The notes: generated by a model not told the origin, from the sequence alone. A stretch of 64,000 nucleotides of DNA from Neocallimastix sp. 'constans' (GCA_050613775.1 JBODTK010000011.1:248001-312000), one strand, 5' to 3'. Shown: positions 13,651 to 52,556, numbered from the stretch's first letter. Translations and numbers: made by a program.

Positions 13651-13865
13651 ACTTTTATGCCCTATGAATTTTTACTTGTATAATTATCTTTTTTATTAAT
13701 ATTAATATGTTCTTATCCTAGAAAAATAATCAAAATTAACCTCTGTATAATAAATTAAGCGAAGGATGGCTATTAATTAGGATTATTTACATATAAAAAT
13801 TATAGTTTAATAATTACTAAATAAAATATAATAATATATAGATAATATTATTTAATTATAATATA

Positions 13866-15303
13866 TAATATATAAATAATAAATAATAAATAATAAATAA
13901 TAAATAATAAATAATAAATAATAAATAATAAATAATAAATAATAAATAATAAATAATAAATAATAAATAATAAATAATAAACAATAAATAATAAATAATA
14001 AATAATAAATAATAAATAATAAATAATAAATAATAAATAATAAATAATAAATAATAAATAATAAATAATAAATAATAAATAATAAATAATAAATAATAAA
14101 TAATAAATAATAAATAATAAATAATAAATAATAAATAATAAATAATAAATAATAAATAATTGAATAATAAATAATAAATAATTGAATAATTGAATAATAA
14201 ATAATAAATAATTGAATAATAAATAATAAATAATTGAATAATAAATAATAAATAATAAATAATAAATAATAAATAATAAATAATAAATAATAAATAATAA
14301 AAAGAGTATTTATTAATAAATAATAAATAATAAATAATAAATAATAAATAATAAAAAGAGTATTTATTAATAAATAATAAATAATAAATAATAAATAATA
14401 AAATAATAAAAAGAGTATTTATTAATAAATAATATATAATAAATGATAAATAATAAATAATAAATAATAAATAAAAAATAGACATAATAGATAATAAATA
14501 ATAAATAATAAATAATAAATAATAAATAATAAATAATAAATAATAAATAATAAATAATAAATAATAAATAATAAAAAGAGTATTTATTAATAAATAATAA
14601 ATAATAAAAAGAGTATTTATTAATAAATAATAAATAATAAATAATAAATAATAAATAATAAATAATAAATAAAAAATAGACATAATAGATAATAAATAAT
14701 AAATAATAAATAAAAAATAGACATAATAGATAATAAATAATAAATAATAAATAATTGAATAATAAATAATAAATAATAAATAATAAATAAAAAATAGACA
14801 TAATAGATAATAAATAATAAATAATAAATAATTGAATAATAAATAATAAATAATAAATAATAAATAATAAATAATAAAAAGAGTATTTATTAATAAATAA
14901 TAAATAATAAATAATAAATAATAAATAATAAATAATAAATAATAAAAAGAGTATTTATTAATAAATAATAAATAATAAATAATAAATAATAAAAAGAGTA
15001 TTTATTAATAAATAATAAATAATAAATAATAAATAATAAATAATAAATAATAAATAATAAATAATAAATAATAAATAATAAATAATAAATAATAAATAAT
15101 AAATAATAAATAATAAATAATAAATAATAAATAATAAATAATAAATAATAAATAATAAATAATAAATAATCAATAATAAATAATAAATAATAAATAATAA
15201 ATAATAAATAATAAATAATAAATAATAAATAATAAATAATAAATAATAAATAATAAATAATAAATAATAAATAATAAATAATAAATAATAAATAATAATA
15301 ATA
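13866..15303. repeat. (AATAAAT)n satellite with higher-order variant units
   Basis: About 1.4 kb of the 7-mer, interrupted by recurring AAAGAGTATTTATT, AAATAGACATAATAGAT and AATTGAAT variants. Confidence 0.95.
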
Positions 15304-15704
15304 ATACAACTACTTACTACTATTTCTACTACTACTAATAATAATAATGTTATTATCAATATTATATTTGATTTTATATATATATATTTTTTTAAGTCTT
15401 TTTTTAAAATTATAAATTTAATATTTTATTATTGCATTTATCACATATCATTTATATCATTTATAATTAATTAAATAATAAAATATTTTTAAAATAAAAA
15501 AAAAATTTTTATTTTTTTTTTAAATTTTTTTAAATCTTTTTTTGGTTCATTTTTTTTTTTTTTATATCCAAATTTTTATTATCAGTTAATTCCATTTTGT
15601 TATATCCAAATTTAAAATTTTTATTATCGTCAGTTTTTTCTTTTATTATTTCCAATTTTTTTTTTTTTTATTTTTTTTTTTATTATATTCTTCTTTTTAT
15701 ATCC

Positions 15705-27702: not shown

Positions 27703-28081
27703 GGGAGAGTTGCATTTCCCCAAATTGCATTTCGCCAGATTGCATTTCGCCAAGTGGCGTAGTATTAAAATGTTGCATTTCCCCAAGTTGCATTTCCCCA
27801 AGTTGCTATTCGCCAGGTTGCATTTCGACAAGTAGAGTATTGATATAAATAAATGAATAAATAAATAAATATTAATTCAAAATATTTTTTTTAAAATTGT
27901 TTTTATGCGATATTAATAATATTTAATTTTATTTATTGATTTATTTATTTATTTAATAATTCTCAATTTGGCGAAATGCAACTTGGCGAAATGCAATTTG
28001 GCGAAATGCCACATTTTTTTAATACGCCACATGCTTTCAAAAAAATTGGCGAAATGCAATTTGGCGAAATGCCCCACACCC
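27703..28081. mobile_element. Non-autonomous Mutator-like (foldback-type) MITE, 379 bp
   Basis: Termini are GGG...CCC. An identical 9-bp flank GTAATTTAT occurs at 27694-27702 and 28082-28090. Seven ~15-bp TTGCATTTCGCCAA units on the left face five inverted copies on the right. Confidence 0.85.
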
Positions 28082-29156: not shown

Positions 29157-29845
29157 ATGGATTATTTAGATGAAGAATATATTGACCCTTTTGAAGCAAG
29201 AATTCAATTTACAGAGATATTAAATAATTTAACGGCTTCTCAAAAATCGGTTACTGATGCAGCTATATTTGCAATGAAAAATAGAAGATCGTATGAACTA
29301 ATATATGAAATTATAAGAAAATTTATTTCAAATCAAGTAAATGATATTTATTAATTTAAAGCTTTTTTTTTTTTTTTAAATTAAATAATTTATAATAATT
29401 AAAATTTTTATTCAATAATATATATATATATATATATTTTTTTTTATTTTTGTTTTTTTGTTTTTATATGTTATAAGCCTGTACAGGCAAGATTAAATAT
29501 ATTTCATGTTATTGATTGTATATGTAGATATAGTATAAAACTTGATTTTGAAGAATATATTGAATTAATTAAAAAAGATTTATCATCAATAATAAAAGAT
29601 ATAACACCAGAAAATGATGCAAAGGGAGATGCCAATGTTAAACCGGTAAGAAAGGTAATAAATCAATTAATAAATAAAAAAAATTTTTTTTTTTTTTAAT
29701 TTTAATTTAAATAATGATAATATCAATGATAATAATGTTGATAATAATAATAATGATAATAATGATAATAATAATGAAAATAAAAATAATAAAAATTATA
29801 AAGATAGAAATACTAATACTAATTATATTGATATTGATGATAATA

Positions 29846-29879
<34 letters not shown>

Positions 29880-31960
29880 TAATTTATTTTATTATAAATT
29901 CAAATTTTTTTAAAATATAAAAAAATTCAAAAATATTAATTTTTAAATTTATAATATATTAATATATTAATGAAAAGGTTTTAAAAGGTTGGAAAGATAA
30001 AAATTTTTTCTCAGAAGAAATATTAAAAACAATATATGAAAAGCTTTACAAAAGAGAACTGAATTTCGAAGAAAAGCAGTAATATATATATATTTAATAT
30101 ATATATATATATGAACTATTAAATCAGTTTATATTTTTTTATTAATGGGTTTTACAATTTTATAAATGTAAATATTATTTTAATAATAATTAGTAAAGCA
30201 AAACAAAGAGCAAAAAATGAAATAACTAAAAGAATGGAGGAAGATAGAGTAAAAGTTAGTAAATAATAATAAAAAAAAATTTTTTATTTTTTAATAAAAA
30301 TAGTTTATTTAACAAAATTAAAATTATGTATATGTTTATATCAATAGCAAAAAAAACGAAAAGAAAATGCATGGATATTAACTCCAGAAATGGATGAATT
30401 TTCAATATATTGGAATAGCTTACCATTATATTCAAAATCTGATTGTGAGGATATAATAAACGAAAATAAAATATTTTATCATGGAGAATTTCCGGATATA
30501 AATGAGAAAGATATATTAAAAATATTAAATGTTAATGAAATTGAACAAAAATTAAGGTCAAAACCTATTGTTTATAATAGTAATGAAAATTTTGAAGATA
30601 AATTATATCATAAAAATAAAAGAATTGATAAAAATACTGAACTATCAAAAGGATATAATGAATCATATTATAATAACAAAGATTATGAAATTAATAAAAG
30701 TCCAAATAAGCGAATAAGAATTGAAAGGGAAAAGGAAATATCTTTTAATAATAACAATAAGAATAATATAAAAGATGATAAAATTAATAAGGATATTGAT
30801 GATTATGAAAGATCATATAGTCGAAATTATGAAAGAAGTAAAGATAAAAATAGAGATTATGATCAAGATAGCAGAAATAGTAAAAATGATAGAAATAATA
30901 AATACAATAATAATGATACTGATAATAAATATGATAAGGAAAGTATTTATTCTTCATACTCTATTCATAAATTAAGAAAGAAAACACGAATATTTATTTG
31001 GGATTTGGATGAGACATTAATATGTAAATATGAATATATAATTTATATTGATTTATTTATGTATACAATTTGTCTAATTTTAAAATAAATAAAATTAATA
31101 TATATTATTTTTTTTTTTTTTTTTTTTTGTATAATATATTTATTATAAAACATTAGTATTTAAATCATTACTCGATAAAAGTTGTCCAGAAATAAAACCA
31201 GAAGATACAAAATTAGGTGTTTTGGCAGCGGAAAAGATGATGAGATGGATTTTTGACATTTCAGAAAATTATTTTCATTATAAAGATATGGAAGAAATTG
31301 CGGATCCTTCTAACTTAGAAATAGATGATATAATACCTTTTGATAAAGACTTAAGGTATTTTCTTTTATATATATATATATATATATATAATTTTATATA
31401 TAATCAAATTAAGTTTTATTTAAATAAAGTATTAATTTTATATATTTGGTTAAAGAAATTATCCTTTTAACAAAGATAATATAAAAAATGAACCCAAAGA
31501 TTCAAAAATATTATTAAAATTATTATCCTATCGATATAAAGATATTAAAAATAAATATGATTCTAATTCATTTAGAGGTAATTAAATCCTTTGATATTTA
31601 TATTTATATTTATTTATTTATTTATTTTTATTTTTATTTTTTAATTATTTATTAATTATTAATATTGTTAATACTAATAATATTATTAATACTACTATTA
31701 TTATAAATATATATATTCTATTAATTAATAAAAAAAAAAAATGTATCATATACATATATATACATATGTACCTTGGGAAAAATAAGATAATATTAAAGAT
31801 ATTAATTTAGTTGATAAAGTATACAATGATATTGATGATTTAAGTCATAAATGGTTAAGTTTTATGTTATCATTGTTAGATGGCGTTAAATTAAGGTTTA
31901 TAAAAATAAATTATTAGATGCATATAAATCTATATTGTTATTATTATTATTATTAATTTA

Positions 31961-32024
<64 letters not shown>

Positions 32025-32689
32025 TATATATTAAATTTCTTAATTTACATAATTAAATATTATATATATTAAATTGAATAGTGGGTCACATGGTAAAGCT
32101 GCTGATTGTGTATTAGTTTCTGCTGGCCATTTAATACCAACATTAGCAAAATGTGTATTATTTAAATTAAGTAATATATTTACAAGTGATAAAGTATGGA
32201 GTTCATCCAAAAATGGTAAAGATTGGTGTTTTAAAGAAATTAAAAAAAAATATGGTAATAACTATGAATATATTGTAGTTGGAAATAGTGAAGAAGTAAG
32301 TAATTTAAAAAAATTAAAATTTAAATTATGGATTTAAATTGAAATTAATGTTAAATTATTATAATATTATTGTAAAATAATATATTTCTAATTGAAAATT
32401 CCTATTTTTTTTTTTTTTATTTTATTATTATTATAAAAAAACAGGAGGGTATAGCTAGTCAAAAGGTAATCCATATAAGTATATATATATATATAATTTT
32501 TAAATATTTCAATACTATTTTTTTTTTTTTTTTTTTAAAATATTTCAATACTAATTTATATATATATATATATATACATATTACTATAATAATATATAAT
32601 AATATAATTATTAGAATGGATGGGCATTTTTTAAAATAAAAGATAAAAGATCATTAATCGAATTTAATAGATTATATATTGATTCTTAA
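29157..32689 (+). CDS. Fusion of CTD kinase I gamma subunit (Ctk3-like: CID-like N-terminus + CTK3_C) and Eyes-absent (EYA) HAD phosphatase domain
   Basis: Ctk3-like part: DPFEARIQFTEILNNLTASQKSVTDAAIFAMKNR, RLNIFHVIDCI, KRMEEDRVKQKKRKENAWIL..EF..YW. EYA-like part: RIFIWDLDETLIVFKSLL, LSYRYKDIKNKY, IDDLSHKWL, VLVSAGHLIPTLAKCVLFKL..VWSSSKNGKDWCFKEI..YIVVGNSEEE. Stop codon at 32687-32689. Confidence 0.85.
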
Positions 32690-32900
32690 ATAAAAATAAA
32701 TAAATAAAATTAGAAGTAAATAAATGCAAAATAAGTACTAAATAAATAAATAAATAAAAATATATAAAAATAATTTGTAAGTTATTAGATAGTAATTATA
32801 AAATAATTTATTTTACTATAATCAATAGTAAAATAATAAATATTATAAAATCATTAAATTAATTACTATTATTTTTATTTTCATTCTTTTTCATATTTTA

Positions 32901-32931
<31 letters not shown>

Positions 32932-33788
32932 TATTATTATTATTATAAATTATAAATTTTTATTATATTGTTGTATCATATATTAATTATAATATTTAAA
33001 AAAAATAATTATATAATATAGAATATTAATATACCAAGTAAAAGTATTAAATTAAAAAAAAGGAAAAATAATAAAGAAAGATTTATTTATAAAATATATT
33101 ATTGTATATAAACTATTAATAAAATATTATTTATATGTATATAAGAACTTATAATTAATTAATAGTTAGCTATTTAATTTTAATATCGTTAGAGTAGGTT
33201 TCAAAATTTTATAATTCTTTTATTATTTATTATTATCATTATTCTTTTTCATAATTATTTATAAAATTTTTTAATGAATAAAAATAAAAAATATATATAT
33301 ATATTGTTCAATTTGGTAAAATTAAATATTAACCAATAATTTTTATAAACAAAACAAATTAAAAAAAAAAAAAAAATTTAAAGTATTATGAAAAAAACTT
33401 TAATTATATGTTATAATTAAAGTTTTGGAATATGATAAAAAAATAATAATAAAAACTTTAATTAGCTTAAAATAAAGTACAAATATACATATATAAAAAC
33501 AAAACCTGTATTTAGTTATATATATATATATAATTATTTTTTATTTTTTTTTTTTATTTTATATTTTTATTAAAAATTTCGAAAAAATAACACAGTATTT
33601 TATTCATATATATATATGAATTTTTTTTTTTTTTTTTTTTTATAATATTTTTTTTTTGTAATATCAAAAGAATAATATATATAATATAATGGTAATAAAG
33701 ATTCTTAAATAATAAAATAGTTAATATATTTAATATATTCATATTATTAATTAGCTTATTTTAATAAATTAATAAATTAAAATAATAG

Positions 33789-36480
33789 TCAAATGAATGT
33801 GTAAAAGTGGTTGTTAGATGTCGACCATTTTCCGAAAAAGAAAAAGAAGCTGGTCATGAAAATATTATAACCATTAATAAAGAGGCAGCTTCAGTTGAAA
33901 TTAAAGATCCAAAATATTTATCAGATAACAATAACAATAATGGTTTTGGAAATAATAATAATAATGGAGATATAGAGCAGACAAGTAAAACATTTACATT
34001 TGATAATGTTTTTGATGAAGAGACTACTCAAATGGAAATATACAATACAACAGCAAGACCCATTGTTGATTCAGTATTAGAAGGATATAATGGAACAATT
34101 TTTGCTTATGGTCAAACTGGTACAGGAAAAACATTTTCAATGGTCGGAGATCGAGATAAAAAAGAATTACGAGGAATTATTCCTAATGCATTTGATCATA
34201 TATTTTCATATATAGGGCGTGGAGGAGAAGATAAAAAGTTTTTAGTTCGTGTAAGTTATTTAGAAATTTATAATGAAAATATTAAAGATTTGTTAAAACC
34301 AAAATCAGGAAAACTTGAGATTAAAGAAAGTCCAGACATTGGTCTATATGTGAAAGATCTTTCAAATTTTGTTGTAAAAGATGTACAAGAAATGGACAGA
34401 TTAATGACAGTAGGTAATAAAAATAGAAGTATCGGAGCAACACAAATGAATGCTCATTCTTCTCGTTCTCATTCAATATTTACAATTACAATTGAAGCAA
34501 GTGAAGTTGATAGTGATGGTCAAGAACATATTCGTGCAGGTAAACTTCATTTAGTAGATTTGGCAGGAAGTGAGCGTCAAACTAAAACTGGTGCAACAGG
34601 AGATAGATTAAAAGAAGCTACAAAAATTAATCTTTCTTTATCAGCATTAGGAAATGTTATTTCAGCTTTAGTTGATAGAAAATCATCTCATATTCCATAT
34701 CGTGATTCAAAATTAACTAGACTTTTACAGGATTCTCTTGGTGGTAATGCAAAAACAGTTATGATTGCCACTCTTAGTCCTGCAAGTTATAATTATGATG
34801 AAAGTTTATCTACTCTTCGTTATGCTAATAGAACTAAAAATATTAAGAATAAACCTAAAGTTAATGAAGATCCAAAGGTTAGAAATAATATCTATATTGA
34901 TTATATTAACTTTTAATATAAATATATTTTTTATTTTTATTATAATTATAATTATAATTATAATTATAATTATAATGCATATATAATAATTATAATGCAT
35001 AAAAAATAATAATAATTAATATTTAATTAATGATAATTTATTTTTAAAAGGATGCTTTATTACGTGAATTTCAAGAAGAAATTAAAAAACTTAAAGAACA
35101 ATTGGAAAAAATGGAAAATGGAAATGAAGAAGCCAATATTATTGAAGATGTAGAAGAAATTGTTGAAGAAGAAGAAGAAGAGGAAGATGATGACGAAGAT
35201 GATGAAGCAAATGATCAATCAAATTCTCAATCTGGATCAAAAAAAGCCAAAAAGAGTTCAAAGAAAAAGAAAAATGGAGATAAAAAAGGTCAAAAGAAAG
35301 TCAACTTTCCTATTTCAAAATTATCGGAACAGAAGCTTAAAGAAATACAGGAGAAAGGTAATTTTCTATTATAATAAATTTATAATTAAATATAATGAAT
35401 AAACTAAAATAAAAATTTTAAATATTATTTTAAATTTTTTTTTTTTTTAATTTGTTATACTCATAATATGAAAAATTATATATGTGATAATTGTAATTAA
35501 TAATAAATTTTATAATAAAAAAAAAAAATTAAACAGTTCAAGCAGAAAAAGATCGTCTTCTTAATGATAAAAATATTATTGAATCAGAAAAAGTTAAATA
35601 TTTATCTGAGTTAGAAGTTCGAGCAAAAGAATTAGAAAAAGAACGTAAAGCAAGAGATCAAATAGAAAAGAAATTAGCACAGATGGAAGCTAAATTATTA
35701 GTTGGTGGTGTTAATATTTTAGATAAGAATGAAGAACAACAAATAATACTAGCAAACCAAGCAAAAGAATTAGAAGAAAGAAGAAGACAAGAAAGACTAC
35801 TTCAAGAATCTATTCAGAATCAAGAAGAAGCCCAATTCCAAATTGAAGAAAATTATAATTCTTTGCAAGAAGAAGTTACTGAAAAAACAAGAAAATTGAA
35901 AAAATTATTCTCTTTAATGATGACAAAGAAAACCGAAGTAAAAGAATTAAGAGAAGAATATCAACAAGAAAGAGAAGACTTAACAGATACAATTAGAGAA
36001 TTAACCCGAGAATTAAAATTGAAATTCTTAATTGTTGAAAATTATTTACCGGAAGAACAGTTACGCTGGATTGAAGAATCTGCAAAATATGATGAATCAA
36101 CTGATAAATGGAGAATTTTACATATTGCTCATGCTGGAAACAATATTCATGGAAAAAGAGGATTATTAAGTAATGATCCATATAGTGAAGCAATATCTAT
36201 GGGTAATAATAAAAAAAATAATAATAAAATAAATTCTTTACCAAAAGATGCAATATGGGATCCTTATTGTGTATTCCCTGATCCTTATTTAGTTTATGAT
36301 CGTAAGCTTTCTAAAAATATTAATAAAAGTCGAAAGGGACGACCATCTAGTGTGAAAAAAACACTAATGTCAGGAACAAGTGGTTTATTATATAAAAAGA
36401 ATATAGAAGGAAATAATGATTCTGTTGATAATGCTCCAAAAGCTAGAGGATTAGTCGCTAAAACAAAGCACTATGCATAA
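33789..36480 (+). CDS. KIF3: Kinesin-2 motor subunit (KIF3A/KIF3B-like, intraflagellar transport); first exon not located
   Basis: Motor motifs [25 protein letters not shown] and [10 protein letters not shown]. Kinesin-2 neck [22 protein letters not shown]. Stalk [27 protein letters not shown]. Tail PKARGLV. Confidence 0.93.
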
Positions 36481-45069: not shown

Positions 45070-48000
45070 ATGAAACTACACATAAATATATTTAAAATTA
45101 TATATTATTATATATATATATGTACAAATTTAAATATTAAAATTTTTCATTATATAGATAAAAATTATTAATAATTTTCAAAAAGTATTTATTTTAACTA
45201 ATTAAAGTATTTTTTCTTCTTATTATTCAATGATAATATTTAAATACAATATTAGATATAGATACTATCAATGCTGTAGTAATAAATGCACTTGCCTTTT
45301 CTAAAAATGGTGGAAATTTATTGTATTCACCTTGTGTTAATGATTTTAATGAATATGCCAAAGAAAATAATTTAAATATTACACTTCAACTAAATTTATT
45401 TTCTGAGTTAAATTCTACAGCAACTGTCAGAGATTATGAAACCTCAATAGATTCACTTTTTCAAAGAAAATCTTCTAAATATGACTTAATATTTTATGAT
45501 AATATTTATTCCAAAAGATTTGGATCACATTTAATAAACTTAAATGATATTTTAAGTAAAGATCATATTGACATGTATATGGAGGGTGTTGCATCTCAAA
45601 CTTGCTTTTATGAAAATAAATTAGTTGGACTTGTAATTACATTATATATTATATACAGTACAACATTTTTACTATAATATATATATATTTTTTTTTCTTT
45701 TTTTTACATGGATTATTATATTAATAAATAATTATTTATTATTATTATATTGATTAAGCCATTGACAGTAGATATTACTGTTTTATATTATAATCAAAAA
45801 TATTTGTATGAATATAATAAAGAAGTACCTAAAACATGGGATGAATTAATAGATACTGGAAAATTCATTTTAGATGAGGAAATAAAAAAAAACAACACTG
45901 AATTCATTGCATATAATGGATTATTTAGTAGTAAATAGAATATCATTAAAACTTGTTATTTTAAATTATATTACATGAAATAATTATTAAAAAAATAAAA
46001 ATCAGTGCAATTAATTAATATTAAATTAAAAAAAAAAAATTAAATTAAATTAATAATAATAATAACTGTATCGATAACAATAAATAATAATTATTACATA
46101 ATAATATATAAATATATAATAATTTTAGCATTTGAAATAGGCATTTGTTCATTATATGAATTTATTTATTCTTTCAGGAATTCTGTTGAGTCACCTTTTC
46201 CTGAAATAACGAGTCAAGAAGCAGTTAATGCACTGGAAAAAATAAAAGAAATAAAAGAAACAATTGCATCTGGTATTAATATAATATAATAATATATATA
46301 TATATATATATACGAATCTTAAATTATTTATTTAACATTAATATATATATATATGTGTGTAAATATGAATGAAAAGATCTAATATTTAGTTCACATGAAG
46401 ATTTTACCAAAAAAAAAATTTCTGATGGAAATTTTTTATTTTTAAAATTTTGGCATCAACCTGAATATGAGAAAGGTTATTCTATTACTCCATTACCAGG
46501 AAATAAAAAAGGTATTTCTGGTACAACAGTGGGAGGTCATAATTTAGGAATTAGTATGTATTCCTCATTAGATAAAAGGTCTGAAGCAATTACAGTTTTT
46601 AAATATTTAACCTCTATTGAAATGCAAAGAAATTATATAGCAAAAAATAATTATTTTTCACCAATACCTAGATTATATAATGAAAAAGAGGTATGTGATA
46701 TTGTTGATTGTGATTTTTTTAAAAATATTCAGTTAATAGCAAGACCAACTTCAAAAACTGATGATTATATTTCCTATGCTAAAAAATTTAAAACTTACAT
46801 TTATGAATTTTTATATGGGAATACCTCAGCATTAGATGCATTAAAAAAAGTTGATAATATTACAAAAGTTTATTCAGTACAATTAAATATTCATGATTCC
46901 TACATTGGTGTAATCCTTTTAGTAGTAACATTAATTTTTTCATTTTTGTTTTTAGGATCGTTAATATTTCTTTATATTAATAAATTTAAATCAGTTTTCA
47001 AATTTTTACCTAATGATTTTTGGTTTTTGATGATATTTGGATATATTTTAATGATATCTGTATTTTTCGTAGAAATTGGTGAAGTAACATGTATGAAATG
47101 CCATATTAAAGTATTAATCCTTTCGTTTAGTTTTACATTATTTTTAATACCAATATTATATAAATTAATTGTATGTTTTCCTGAAGAAAATAATGTAGTT
47201 TCAAAATGGGTTAATTCACATAAATACTATATTCTATTATTTTTTATGACATTAGATTTAATATTATGGGGGCTTATGTTTATAACACCATATACAGTGG
47301 AAAAAGAAACATTTAATGAAGGAAAGACCTATCAAATATGTAACATGAAAAATCTATTTGGGCGAATAATAATATGTTTTATCTATTTTTATAAAATATT
47401 AATTTTTTTGACAATATTTTTTTTAATATTTATTGAATGGAATCTTAAAATTTTGCATTATGATATACGATTTTTGGACATAGCATTTTATATTGATTCT
47501 TTAATAATTCTAACATTTATAATAATATCCTTGATTAAGTTTGATGATTATACCTTTTATTTTGTAATAAAGGAAATTTTAAATATTACATTTGCAACTA
47601 ACAACTATAATTTAATATATGGATTTAGAATTATTTGGGGATTAATGAAAAAAAAGCATAAAGAGAAGTCAGTTGATGATCTAGTTAATGATCTTTTAAA
47701 AATAGCTGATCGACAAGATAATAATTTTAATATTAACTTCAACAATAACAATAACAATAATAATAATATTAATGTTAATGTTAATTATAATAATAATTTT
47801 AATATTAATATTAATAATAATAATAATGATAATAATAATAATAATAATAATATTAATATTAATAATAATATTAATAATAATGACTCTAATGTAAGTATAG
47901 CGGATTTATGTGATGATTCTCATGCAAATATTATAGCAGGTAAACCAGAAGATAATCGAAAAGCTTCAATCATTTCAATAATGTCTCAAAGAATTATAAA

Positions 48001-48085
48001 TTATCATTATAAAACAAGTTTAGAAAATATAAGTAATATAGAGGAGTCCGATATTACATTTATATTGAAATCAAATATAAACTGA
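45070..48085 (+). CDS. 7TM (class C GPCR-like) receptor with N-terminal extracellular solute/sugar-binding protein domain
   Basis: Signal-peptide-like first exon (MKLHINIFKIIYYYIY). SBP family 1-like motifs: YDLIFYDNIY..FGSHLINL, KLVGLPLTVDITVLYYN..L..YNKEVPKTWDELI, LPG..G...VGG..LGI, A..FKYLTS.EMQ, RP. About seven hydrophobic helices and an Asn-rich tail follow in exon 46378-48085. Confidence 0.85.
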
Positions 48086-51593: not shown

Positions 51594-52039
51594 TCTATTT
51601 TTTTATTTATTTATTTATTTTTTATTTATTTATTTATTTATTTAATAAAATTATCAAAATTCAGTTAAATTTATTGGATAATTAACATTTATTTTAATAT
51701 AAAGTTTTATAAAAAAGTTTGATAAAAAAATTTTTACAGAAAGGTTTTAAATCTTTTTTGATAATATTTCTTGAACTTTTTTAATACATATCAAAAACAT
51801 TTATAATTTTATTTTATTTTATTTTATTTTATTCAATCTGTACTTTATATTCATATTCTACTATTTATTTTATTTTATTTTATTTTATTTACTATTTCTT
51901 CTTATTTTTCATTTTTTTTTAATATATATTTCATTATATTATATAGTAATATTAATAATATTAACAAATATTATAAAAATTTGTTCATTTTCATATAATA
52001 AAAAATAATTCTAATAAAAAAATAAATGATAAAAAGATG

Positions 52040-52556
52040 TATTTATTAATAAATAATAAATAATAAAAAGAGTATTTATTAATAAATAATAAATAATAAA
52101 TAATAAATAATAAATAATAAAGAGTATTTATTAATAAATAATAAATAATAAATAATAAAGAGTATTTATTAATAAATAATAAATAATAAATAATAAAAAG
52201 AGTATTTATTAATAAATAATAAATAATAAATAATAAATAATAAAGAGTATTTGTTAATAAATAATAAATAATAAATAATAAATAATAATAAAAAGAGTAT
52301 TTATTAATAAATAATAAATAATAAATAATAAAAAGAGTATTTATTAATAAATAATAAATAATAAAAAGAGTATTTATTAATAATTAAATAAATAATAAAT
52401 AATAAAAAGAGTATTTATTAATAAATAATAAATAATATAAAGAAGTTTATTTATTAATAAATAGATAAATAATAAAAAAAAAGAGTATTTATTAATAAAT
52501 AGATAAATAATAAAAAAAAAGAGTATTTATTAATAAATAATAAATAATAAATAATT
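52040..52556. repeat. Second array of the (AATAAAT)n / AAAGAGTATTTATT satellite
   Basis: Same core and same variant unit as the array at 13866-15303. Confidence 0.9.

What the first reader, a model, noticed from the sequence alone, without database searches (positions are those of the whole stretch)
29157..32689. Ctk3 (Pol II CTD kinase I subunit) fused to an Eyes-absent phosphatase domain
Seen in sequence: a full Ctk3-like protein continues through a charged linker into a complete EYA domain. The CTK3_C motif (QKKRKENAWIL..EF..YW) and the EYA motif I (RIFIWDLDETLI) are in the same stop-free exon (about 30348-31023), so the join does not depend on my splicing. Established knowledge: Ctk3 is the non-catalytic subunit of the fungal Ser2-CTD kinase complex CTDK-I. 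EYA is a HAD-family tyrosine phosphatase known mainly from animals and plants and is absent from yeasts. Inference: an early-diverging fungus may tether an EYA phosphatase to the elongation CTD kinase, forming a coupled kinase/phosphatase module that could act on CTD Tyr1 or chromatin. I do not know of this architecture being described.
Basis: partly seen in the sequence, partly recalled or inferred. Interest (0 to 1): 0.9.

Follow-up and report, generated by a model that had tools for sequence, protein, structure and literature searches.

The report
Ctk3 kinase subunit fused to EYA
One spliced gene, in what is likely an anaerobic gut fungus, joins Ctk3 (a helper subunit of the kinase that marks the RNA polymerase II tail) to an Eyes-absent phosphatase domain, and because the same layout recurs in distant single-celled eukaryotes, yeast Ctk3 and animal Eyes absent are likely two surviving halves of one old transcription protein.

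Summary
The fusion is real. An 11-exon gene (29157-32689, +) encodes 644 aa: Pfam CTK3 and CTK3_C above cut-off, a charged linker, then a whole EYA domain (predicted fold Z 31.9 to human EYA2). An intron-free contig, L002, matches the spliced CDS 1935/1935 with all 10 junctions exact. A Piromyces finnis protein is colinear at 60% identity. The layout is not a local oddity. Ctk3- or CID-plus-EYA proteins also occur in Endogone, Rozella, Ichthyophonus (model ends early), a choanoflagellate, Ancoracysta, Plasmodiophora and two unnamed eukaryotes, and their EYA domains do not form one clade (AU p 0.033, weak). It is likely an old architecture from which yeasts kept Ctk3 and animals and plants kept EYA. 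Caveats: this copy has Asn in place of the motif IV metal-binding Asp, so activity is uncertain; binding to Ctk1/Ctk2 and a CTD Tyr1 substrate are untested; many protist EYAs lack the module. A 2021 review lists the Piromyces EYA without naming Ctk3; no searched paper holds both names. The scan noted this architecture twice before on other genomes.

The parts
29157..32689 (+). Ctk3-EYA gene, 11 exons, 1935-nt CDS, 644 aa
   Evidence: splice model; identical intron-free copy L002
29157..29336 (+). exon 1 (aa 1-60), start of CID/CTK3 domain
   Evidence: Pfam CTK3 E 3.9e-12
29478..29654 (+). exon 2 (aa 61-119), CID/CTK3 domain, holds the Asp73 that is invariant in alignment A4
   Evidence: Pfam CTK3 E 9e-10
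29978..30078 (+). exon 3 (aa 120-153), end of CID and start of a long predicted helix
30194..30254 (+). exon 4 (aa 153-173), first half of CTK3_C
30348..31023 (+). exon 5 (aa 174-398): second half of CTK3_C, charged linker and EYA motif I in one open frame
30567..30974 (+). linker aa 247-382, 42% charged, 20% Asn, predicted disordered (pLDDT mostly under 50), 38% identical to Piromyces
31002..31016 (+). HAD motif I, D392-L-D394-E-T396, intact
31157..31355 (+). exon 6, EYA cap
   Evidence: TIGR01658 positions 15-73
31456..31577 (+). exon 7, EYA cap
   Evidence: TIGR01658 positions 83-116 (E 0.02)
31787..31895 (+). exon 8, EYA cap
32082..32295 (+). exon 9, EYA core: motif II Ser555, motif III Lys588, motif IV G-N610-S-E-E
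   Evidence: TIGR01658 E 1.3e-16; alignment to EYA2
32445..32465 (+). exon 10 (21 nt), holds Glu614 of motif IV
32615..32689 (+). exon 11, last strand and helix of the EYA core, stop codon
29087..29156 (+). 5' untranslated stretch present in L002

Best explanation
The window holds one 11-exon gene for a 644-residue protein in which a Ctk3 module is joined through a charged linker to a full-length EYA domain; it likely serves as the third subunit of the Ser2-CTD kinase CTDK-I, would thereby hold the EYA domain beside elongating RNA polymerase II, and is likely a survivor of an old eukaryotic layout that yeasts cut down to Ctk3 and animals and plants to EYA. Shown: the single reading frame, both domains, and the same order of domains in several other lineages. 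Inferred: the CID and CTK3_C parts bind the cyclin and the kinase as in yeast; the roughly 135-residue flexible linker lets the EYA domain reach phosphotyrosine on the elongation complex, CTD Tyr1 being the likeliest target, so that Ser2 marking and Tyr1 removal are coupled. My odds by step: one gene 0.98; CTDK-I subunit 0.75; layout already in the ancestor of fungi and animals 0.85, in a deeper eukaryote ancestor 0.6; the family acts as a phosphatase at Pol II 0.5; CTD Tyr1 the main substrate 0.3; this copy, with Asn at motif IV, keeps useful activity 0.45.
For: Single frame: (L002 identical, 10 of 10 junctions). Domains; predicted model matches EYA2 (3hb0, Z 31.9, rmsd 1.7, 251 aligned) and the Ctk3 CID (5ce7, Z 20.6, rmsd 1.7, 139 aligned); by sequence the N-terminus is far closer to Ctk3 (E 1.8e-14) than to other CIDs (best 1e-3). 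CTK3_C is the best-kept N-terminal part against Piromyces (45 of 58 identical; CID 83 of 137; linker 53 of 138; EYA 196 of 259). Same layout: Piromyces P0156, Endogone P0158, Rozella P0049, Ichthyophonus P0168, Codosiga P0084, Ancoracysta P0067, unnamed P0014, Plasmodiophora P0147 (CTK3_C-only profile 25.9 bits, 0 of 1000 shuffles), unnamed locus L009. The motif IV Asp is kept in 6 of 6 complete fused proteins outside the gut-fungus group. The eight fused EYA domains need 5 changes on the tree, are one group in 0 of 200 bootstrap trees, and forcing them together is rejected at p 0.033. Ctk3 bridges Ctk1 and Ctk2 and has no human counterpart (passages of PMC10746219; 10.1101/2024.10.14.618141). 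EYA inhibition raises Pol II pTyr1 in human cells (PMC12548103).
Against: Asn610 replaces the metal-binding Asp in the window, Piromyces and fragment P0001; 130 of 165 aligned rows have Asp there, 8 have Asn. TIGR01658 stays under its cut-off. Only 4 of 58 EYA hits scanned had a Pfam CID or CTK3 match at E up to 0.05, and Rozella's is under cut-off; 2 of 17 metagenome loci hit my N-terminal profile. Complete-looking EYAs of Paulinella, Aphanomyces, green algae and Creolimax show no such module, so the old-layout reading needs many losses. In Ancoracysta and Codosiga only a generic CID is seen; the CTK3_C-only profile found nothing there (128 and 102 of 1000 shuffles as good). The base of the tree is unresolved, branches are long and the AU result is marginal. 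Near relative P0151 ends just before motif I. The human Tyr1 result rests on one inhibitor with other known targets. From recall, not from a call: the fission-yeast Ctk3 CID was reported not to bind phospho-CTD peptides.
Confidence: 0.55

Rival explanations
1. In this fungal group the EYA domain is a dead or nearly dead phosphatase that works as a phosphotyrosine reader or protein scaffold on the Ctk3 subunit; catalysis matters only in other lineages.
For: Asn for the motif IV Asp in 3 of 3 gut-fungus-type sequences, with Ser for the next Gly; the review names that Asp as the Mg ligand (PMC8069645). The domain is still 76% identical to Piromyces, so something other than decay keeps it. A paper titled 'Eyes Absent tyrosine phosphatase activity is not required for Drosophila development or survival' is in the listing (listing only).
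Against: Motifs I, II, III and Glu614 are kept. Asn at this column also occurs in four proteins that fall in the animal group of the tree (P0002, P0004, P0024, P0055), so it may be tolerated. PMC5673202 reports measurable residual activity for one Asp-to-Asn EYA mutant (motif I).
Confidence: 0.3
2. CID-type domains were fused to EYA several times independently, or one opisthokont fusion spread sideways, so the layout is not ancestral to eukaryotes.
For: EYA takes many N-termini: C2H2 fingers in Paulinella, SH3 in Codosiga and P0148. Ancoracysta and Codosiga show CID but no detectable CTK3_C. Most EYA hits lack the module. The tree base is open. Ancoracysta is known here from one transcriptome protein only.
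Against: Plasmodiophora carries the Ctk3-specific CTK3_C segment ahead of EYA and its EYA does not group with fungi. Domain order is the same in all cases. Fungi and two holozoan lineages share it.
Confidence: 0.3
3. The N-terminal module docks the EYA domain on the Pol II tail directly, as an ordinary CID, or aims it at another substrate (a histone tyrosine, or the kinase itself), with no stable CTDK-I complex.
For: The predicted CID fits RPRD and SCAF8 CIDs almost as well as Ctk3 (Z 19.2-18.7 against 20.6). Asp73 is invariant and aligns with the Asp of SCAF8 and RPRD2 CIDs, recalled as a CTD Tyr1 contact. Known EYA substrates include H2AX Tyr142 (PMC8069645). Codosiga and Ancoracysta lack a visible CTK3_C.
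Against: The window protein has a CTK3_C above cut-off that is strongly conserved and aligns to the C-terminal part of Ctk3 in the CTDK-I structure 7jv7 (profile E 4e-4).
Confidence: 0.2
4. Two neighbouring genes, or an assembly or annotation artefact.
For: P0151, a near relative, is recorded as a Ctk3-only protein ending before motif I. L002 itself runs on into the next gene, so it can bridge two genes.
Against: One exon spans CTK3_C, linker and motif I without a stop; L002 has one 644-codon frame; Piromyces is colinear end to end; P0151 ends in a poly-Lys, AT-rich tail that looks like read-in to an intron (my reading).
Confidence: 0.02

Closest known systems
Ctk3 / Lsg1 / FlpB, gamma subunit of fungal CTDK-I (Pfam PF12243 and PF12350; PDB 5CE7, 7JV7)
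   Same: CID-fold N-terminus followed by CTK3_C, both above Pfam cut-off; predicted fold closest to 5CE7.
   Different: Continues for about 430 residues into a linker and an EYA domain. Known Ctk3 proteins stand alone: the nine Mucorales orthologues in the PMC10746219 table are 221-324 aa, too short for both parts.
Eyes absent (EYA1-4) HAD tyrosine phosphatases (TIGR01658; PDB 3GEB, 3HB0, 4EGC) and plant single-domain EYA
   Same: Whole core and helical cap, motifs I-III and the last Glu of motif IV.
   Different: N-terminus is a folded Ctk3 module, not the low-complexity transactivation region of animals or nothing as in plants; motif IV Asp is Asn; score under the family cut-off.
Piromyces finnis ORX42533 (672 aa), the top fungal EYA hit named by species and length in the review PMC8069645
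   Same: Orthologue: 60% identity, colinear, same Asn at motif IV.
   Different: The review's text and figure legend call the N-terminal part a variable (transactivation) domain and do not name Ctk3 or CID; I did not see the figure itself.
CTD phosphatases of the HAD class (Fcp1/Scp) and CID adaptors (RPRD1/2, Rtt103, Pcf11, SCAF8)
   Same: A HAD domain or a CID aimed at the Pol II tail (Fcp1 role recalled; CID folds matched).
   Different: No known member joins a CID to a phosphatase domain in one chain as far as I recall; the catalytic domain here is EYA-type with the large helical cap, not FCP-type.

Membership tests
Ctk3 | Pfam CTK3 (PF12243) above cut-off | tested here: met
   102 bits against 23.7, aa 9-129
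Ctk3 | Pfam CTK3_C (PF12350) after the CID | tested here: met
   39.6 bits against 25, aa 160-213
Ctk3 | CID closer to Ctk3 than to other CIDs | tested here: met
   phmmer E 1.8e-14 (5CE7) against 1e-3 (RPRD2); fold Z 20.6 against 19.2, a small margin
Ctk3 | binds Ctk1 and Ctk2 and activates the kinase | not testable with these tools
   no genome is held and no Ctk1 or Ctk2 sequence of this organism was retrieved
Ctk3 | stand-alone subunit without a catalytic domain | tested here: not met
   644 aa with an EYA domain
EYA | TIGR01658 above curated cut-off | tested here: not met
   157.6 bits against 195.3, though E 5e-46, the only family hit and nearly full profile; 7 of the 8 other protist or fungal EYAs in the same call are also under it
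EYA | HAD core with the EYA helical cap | tested here: met
   predicted model against EYA2: Z 31.9, rmsd 1.7, 251 aligned; next unrelated HADs Z about 12
EYA | motif I DxDxT, motif II S/T, motif III K | tested here: met
   D392 D394 T396, S555, K588
EYA | motif IV metal-binding Asp | tested here: not met
   Asn610 aligns with the Asp of EYA2 GDG; Glu612-614 present
EYA | Mg-dependent phosphotyrosine phosphatase activity | not testable with these tools
   needs an enzyme assay

The most novel reading that the evidence does not exclude
Eyes absent began as the catalytic half of a Ctk3-EYA subunit of the Pol II Ser2 kinase in early eukaryotes, removing CTD Tyr1 phosphate as Ser2 is written; yeast Ctk3 (no human counterpart) and animal EYA (no yeast counterpart) are the complementary remains of that one gene.
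Probability: 0.3. Interest if true: 0.92.

Novelty: new variant of a known kind. Interest (0 to 1): 0.77.

Why it matters
Two puzzles would meet in one gene: why the yeast Ser2 kinase has a third subunit that animals lack, and what the EYA phosphatase did before animals used it in eye, ear and kidney development, where its true substrates are still debated. The fusion points to the Pol II elongation complex and makes that directly testable in yeast and in vitro, with natural Asp and Asn versions for comparison. It also bears on reports that human EYA inhibition raises Pol II Tyr1 phosphorylation.

Tried and rejected
No genome is held for the window, so I could not look for Ctk1, Ctk2 or a second Ctk3. 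Word-index search with exon 9 found nothing significant. ESM Atlas: no usable hit for P0014; for the Piromyces N-terminus only CID/CTK3 clusters, nothing on the fusion. The CTK3_C-only profile was negative on Ancoracysta, Codosiga, both Paulinella proteins, P0009, P0148, P0161, P0002 and P0120 (9 of 10 tested; only Plasmodiophora positive). The careful tree of 75 rows did not finish; the quick tree was replaced by a careful tree of 34 of those rows. P0148 (SH3-EYA) may have the end of a CID (7.9 bits, 0 of 500 shuffles) but was not counted as fused. No complex prediction was run, for want of partner sequences. The CTDK-I structure paper was not held. Look-ups of earlier findings by place and by sequence returned nothing.

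Full report
What was checked. The region is very AT-rich (6-29% GC per 2 kb across the window). Reading splice sites by hand gave 11 exons from ATG 29157 to the stop ending at 32689, ten GT-AG introns of 93-323 nt, and one open frame of 644 codons. Coding exons have 16-43% GC, introns 6-10%. Before any splicing was assumed, exons 1 and 2 each hit Pfam CTK3 and pieces of exons 5, 6, 7 and 9 hit TIGR01658 in the right order.

Independent check of the gene model. A scan of metagenome contigs returned 17 loci (17 of 64 parts of the collection were scanned). L002 holds the CDS without introns, 1935 of 1935 bases identical, all 10 junctions exact, plus 70 nt upstream. I infer that it was assembled from mRNA; the record type is not given, and at this identity it is probably the same species or strain, so it confirms splicing and not distribution. 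Piromyces finnis ORX42533 (P0156, 672 aa) aligns end to end at 60% identity. That identity, the base composition and a neighbouring kinesin gene (kinesin-2 type by my reading) make an anaerobic gut fungus likely; this is inference.

Anatomy. On the L002 frame Pfam gives CTK3 at aa 9-129 (102 bits), CID at 17-137 and CTK3_C at 160-213 (39.6 bits), all above cut-off. TIGR01658 covers aa 386-631 at E 5e-46 but 157.6 bits, under its 195.3 cut-off, as were 7 of the 8 other fungal or protist EYAs in that call. The AlphaFold model from a 32-row alignment (mean pLDDT 76.6, pTM 0.48) has two confident domains and a linker under pLDDT 50 at 247-319 and 332-382; the low pTM means their relative position is not predicted. 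The model matches EYA2 (Z 31.9, rmsd 1.7, 251 residues) and the Ctk3 CID 5CE7 (Z 20.6, rmsd 1.7, 139), with other CIDs close behind (Z 19.2 and lower) (Foldseek agrees). Against Piromyces, identity is 61% in the CID, 78% in CTK3_C, 38% in the linker and 76% in EYA.

Active site. Motif I (D392, D394, T396), motif II (S555) and motif III (K588) are present. Motif IV reads GNSEEE where EYA2 has GDG, so Asn610 replaces the Asp that the review PMC8069645 names as the metal ligand. Of 175 sequences aligned to my EYA profile, 165 had a residue in that column: 130 Asp, 8 Asn, the rest mostly ragged fragment ends (near-duplicates and the window protein included). The Asn rows are the window, Piromyces, fragment P0001 and five others, four of which sit in the animal group of the tree. 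I found no measurement for this exact change (one search listed two papers, neither holding the motif IV mutant names). Activity of this copy is therefore open.

Distribution. An HMMER search of 1.84 billion cluster representatives with exon 9 gave 203 hits, 150 listed. I scanned the 56 of 330 aa or more plus two shorter ones: 4 of 58 had Pfam CID or CTK3 at E up to 0.05: unnamed P0014, Rozella allomycis P0049 (under cut-off), Ancoracysta twista P0067 and Codosiga hollandica P0084, the last with an SH3 between CID and EYA. A profile search gave 13 hits, 3 with CTK3 or CID, adding Endogone P0158 (922 aa, CTK3, CTK3_C and EYA) and Ichthyophonus hoferi P0168, whose model ends just after motif I. 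A profile from seven fused or near-related N-termini, built without them, found Codosiga, Ancoracysta and Plasmodiophora brassicae P0147 above all 500 shuffles each. A CTK3_C-only profile was positive for Plasmodiophora alone of 10 proteins tested (25.9 bits, 0 of 1000 shuffles), not for Ancoracysta or Codosiga. Of the 17 loci, L002 and the intron-containing, GC-rich L009 hit the N-terminal profile. The P0014 model also splits into an EYA fold and a CID with 5CE7 as best CID hit. The Codosiga and Ancoracysta records are labelled complete ORFs in transcript style. All six complete fused proteins outside the gut-fungus group keep the motif IV Asp. Against a universal layout: Paulinella (two, with C2H2 fingers), Aphanomyces, Creolimax, green algae, plants and animals show no module, and near relative P0151 stops before motif I.

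Tree. Of 175 sequences, 83 covered 80% of the EYA profile; I dropped 8 near-duplicates, built a quick tree of 75 and a careful tree of 34 of them, thinning mainly the animal-type and green-type rows. The window, Piromyces and Endogone group at 96/88; a group with Polyodon (animal-type) at 100/98; a group with Chenopodium, Tetraselmis and Apatococcus at 98/94. Plasmodiophora falls near Paulinella with weak support (81/55). The eight fused rows, labelled before the tree was built, need 5 changes, are together in 0 of 200 bootstrap trees, and holding them together is rejected at p 0.033; starred branches alone do not rule out one group. The tree is unrooted, its base is open and branches are long. 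It fits vertical descent with repeated loss, and does not prove it.

Mechanism. Ctk3 bridges the kinase and the cyclin of CTDK-I and is absent from humans (passages, PMC10746219); it opens the Ctk1 T-loop (passage of the preprint 10.1101/2024.10.14.618141). Since both Ctk3 parts are kept here, I infer that the protein fills that place and carries EYA to elongating Pol II on a flexible tether. A 2025 letter reports higher Pol II Tyr1 phosphorylation after EYA inhibition in human leukaemia cells and cites Li et al. 2003 for EYA1 acting on Tyr1 (PMC12548103, parts 1 and 2 of 3 read; its supplement and the 2003 paper not seen). From recall only: Tyr1 phosphate blocks CID-type termination factors, so coupling its removal to the Ser2 kinase would be coherent, and the fission-yeast Ctk3 CID was reported not to bind CTD peptides. 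No step of this mechanism was tested here.

What is in print. 'Ctk3' with 'Eyes absent' occurs together in 0 papers of the library. 'Eyes absent', fungi, phosphatase and chytrid give one, the review PMC8069645, whose section 5 (read whole) reports five fungal EYA hits led by a 672-aa Piromyces finnis protein and choanoflagellate EYAs, with no word on Ctk3 or CID; its figures were not visible. Of 25 papers holding two of EYA, 'CTD-interacting domain' and choanoflagellate, none of the 20 listed held the CID phrase. Database names give one half each: Endogone is named for CTK3, Piromyces as a tyrosine phosphatase. In the PMC10746219 table the 11 Mucoromycota Ctk3 orthologues with a length are 221-324 aa for nine Mucorales and 361 and 498 aa for two Mortierella (one supplementary PDF was unreadable). 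Other papers were seen as passages only: PMC4083861, PMC5673202, PMC5457138, PMC4350670. The library lacks most subscription journals and preprint supplements, so a mention elsewhere is possible. Two earlier notes of this scan describe the same layout on other genomes; I had written my reading before seeing them, and they are not independent proof.

Verdict. Observation confirmed; interpretation partly supported and widened. Both domains are known, their union is not described in what I could search, and it links two families thought to be confined to different kingdoms. I file it as a new variant of a known kind, a Ctk3 homologue that is not stand-alone and an EYA homologue that fails the motif IV test, with interest 0.77.

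Noticed in passing
window 32777-33021 and 33194-33788; L002 2092-2265: L002 runs on from the Ctk3-EYA 3' end through two GT-AG skips into the spliced downstream kinesin gene, entering after a likely ATG-only first exon at 33689-33691. This looks like a read-through transcript that leaves the kinesin frame without its start codon; an assembly merge is not excluded.
   Followed up: partly
window 27703-28081: A 379-bp element with long inverted arms made of 15-nt repeats, flanked by an exact 9-bp direct repeat: likely a Mutator- or foldback-type miniature transposon, about 1.1 kb upstream of the gene.
   Followed up: partly
P0030, P0034, P0168, P0084, P0148: Protist EYAs carry other add-ons: C2H2 fingers in both Paulinella proteins, a C2H2-like stretch after CTK3_C in Ichthyophonus (read by eye), SH3 in Codosiga and two SH3 matches in P0148, one inside the EYA cap.
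   Followed up: no
P0151: Near relative (64% identity) recorded as a 391-aa Ctk3-plus-linker protein that ends just before motif I: a gene-model error or a Ctk3-only isoform.
   Followed up: partly
P0009, P0036, P0173: A divergent EYA group with altered motifs I and IV (for example WELDEA or WEIDGA, and GGN or GGG), probably inactive.
   Followed up: no
window 33789-36480 (+): Kinesin motor gene (Pfam Kinesin E 5.5e-126), kinesin-2-like by my reading, which would fit a flagellated organism.
   Followed up: partly
window 45237-48085 (+): Open frames that read like an extracellular solute-binding domain followed by a seven-transmembrane region, a receptor type recalled from anaerobic gut fungi; not scanned.
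   Followed up: no
window about 13850-15420 and 51990-52380: Long degenerate short-unit tandem arrays that give spurious open frames on the minus strand.
   Followed up: no
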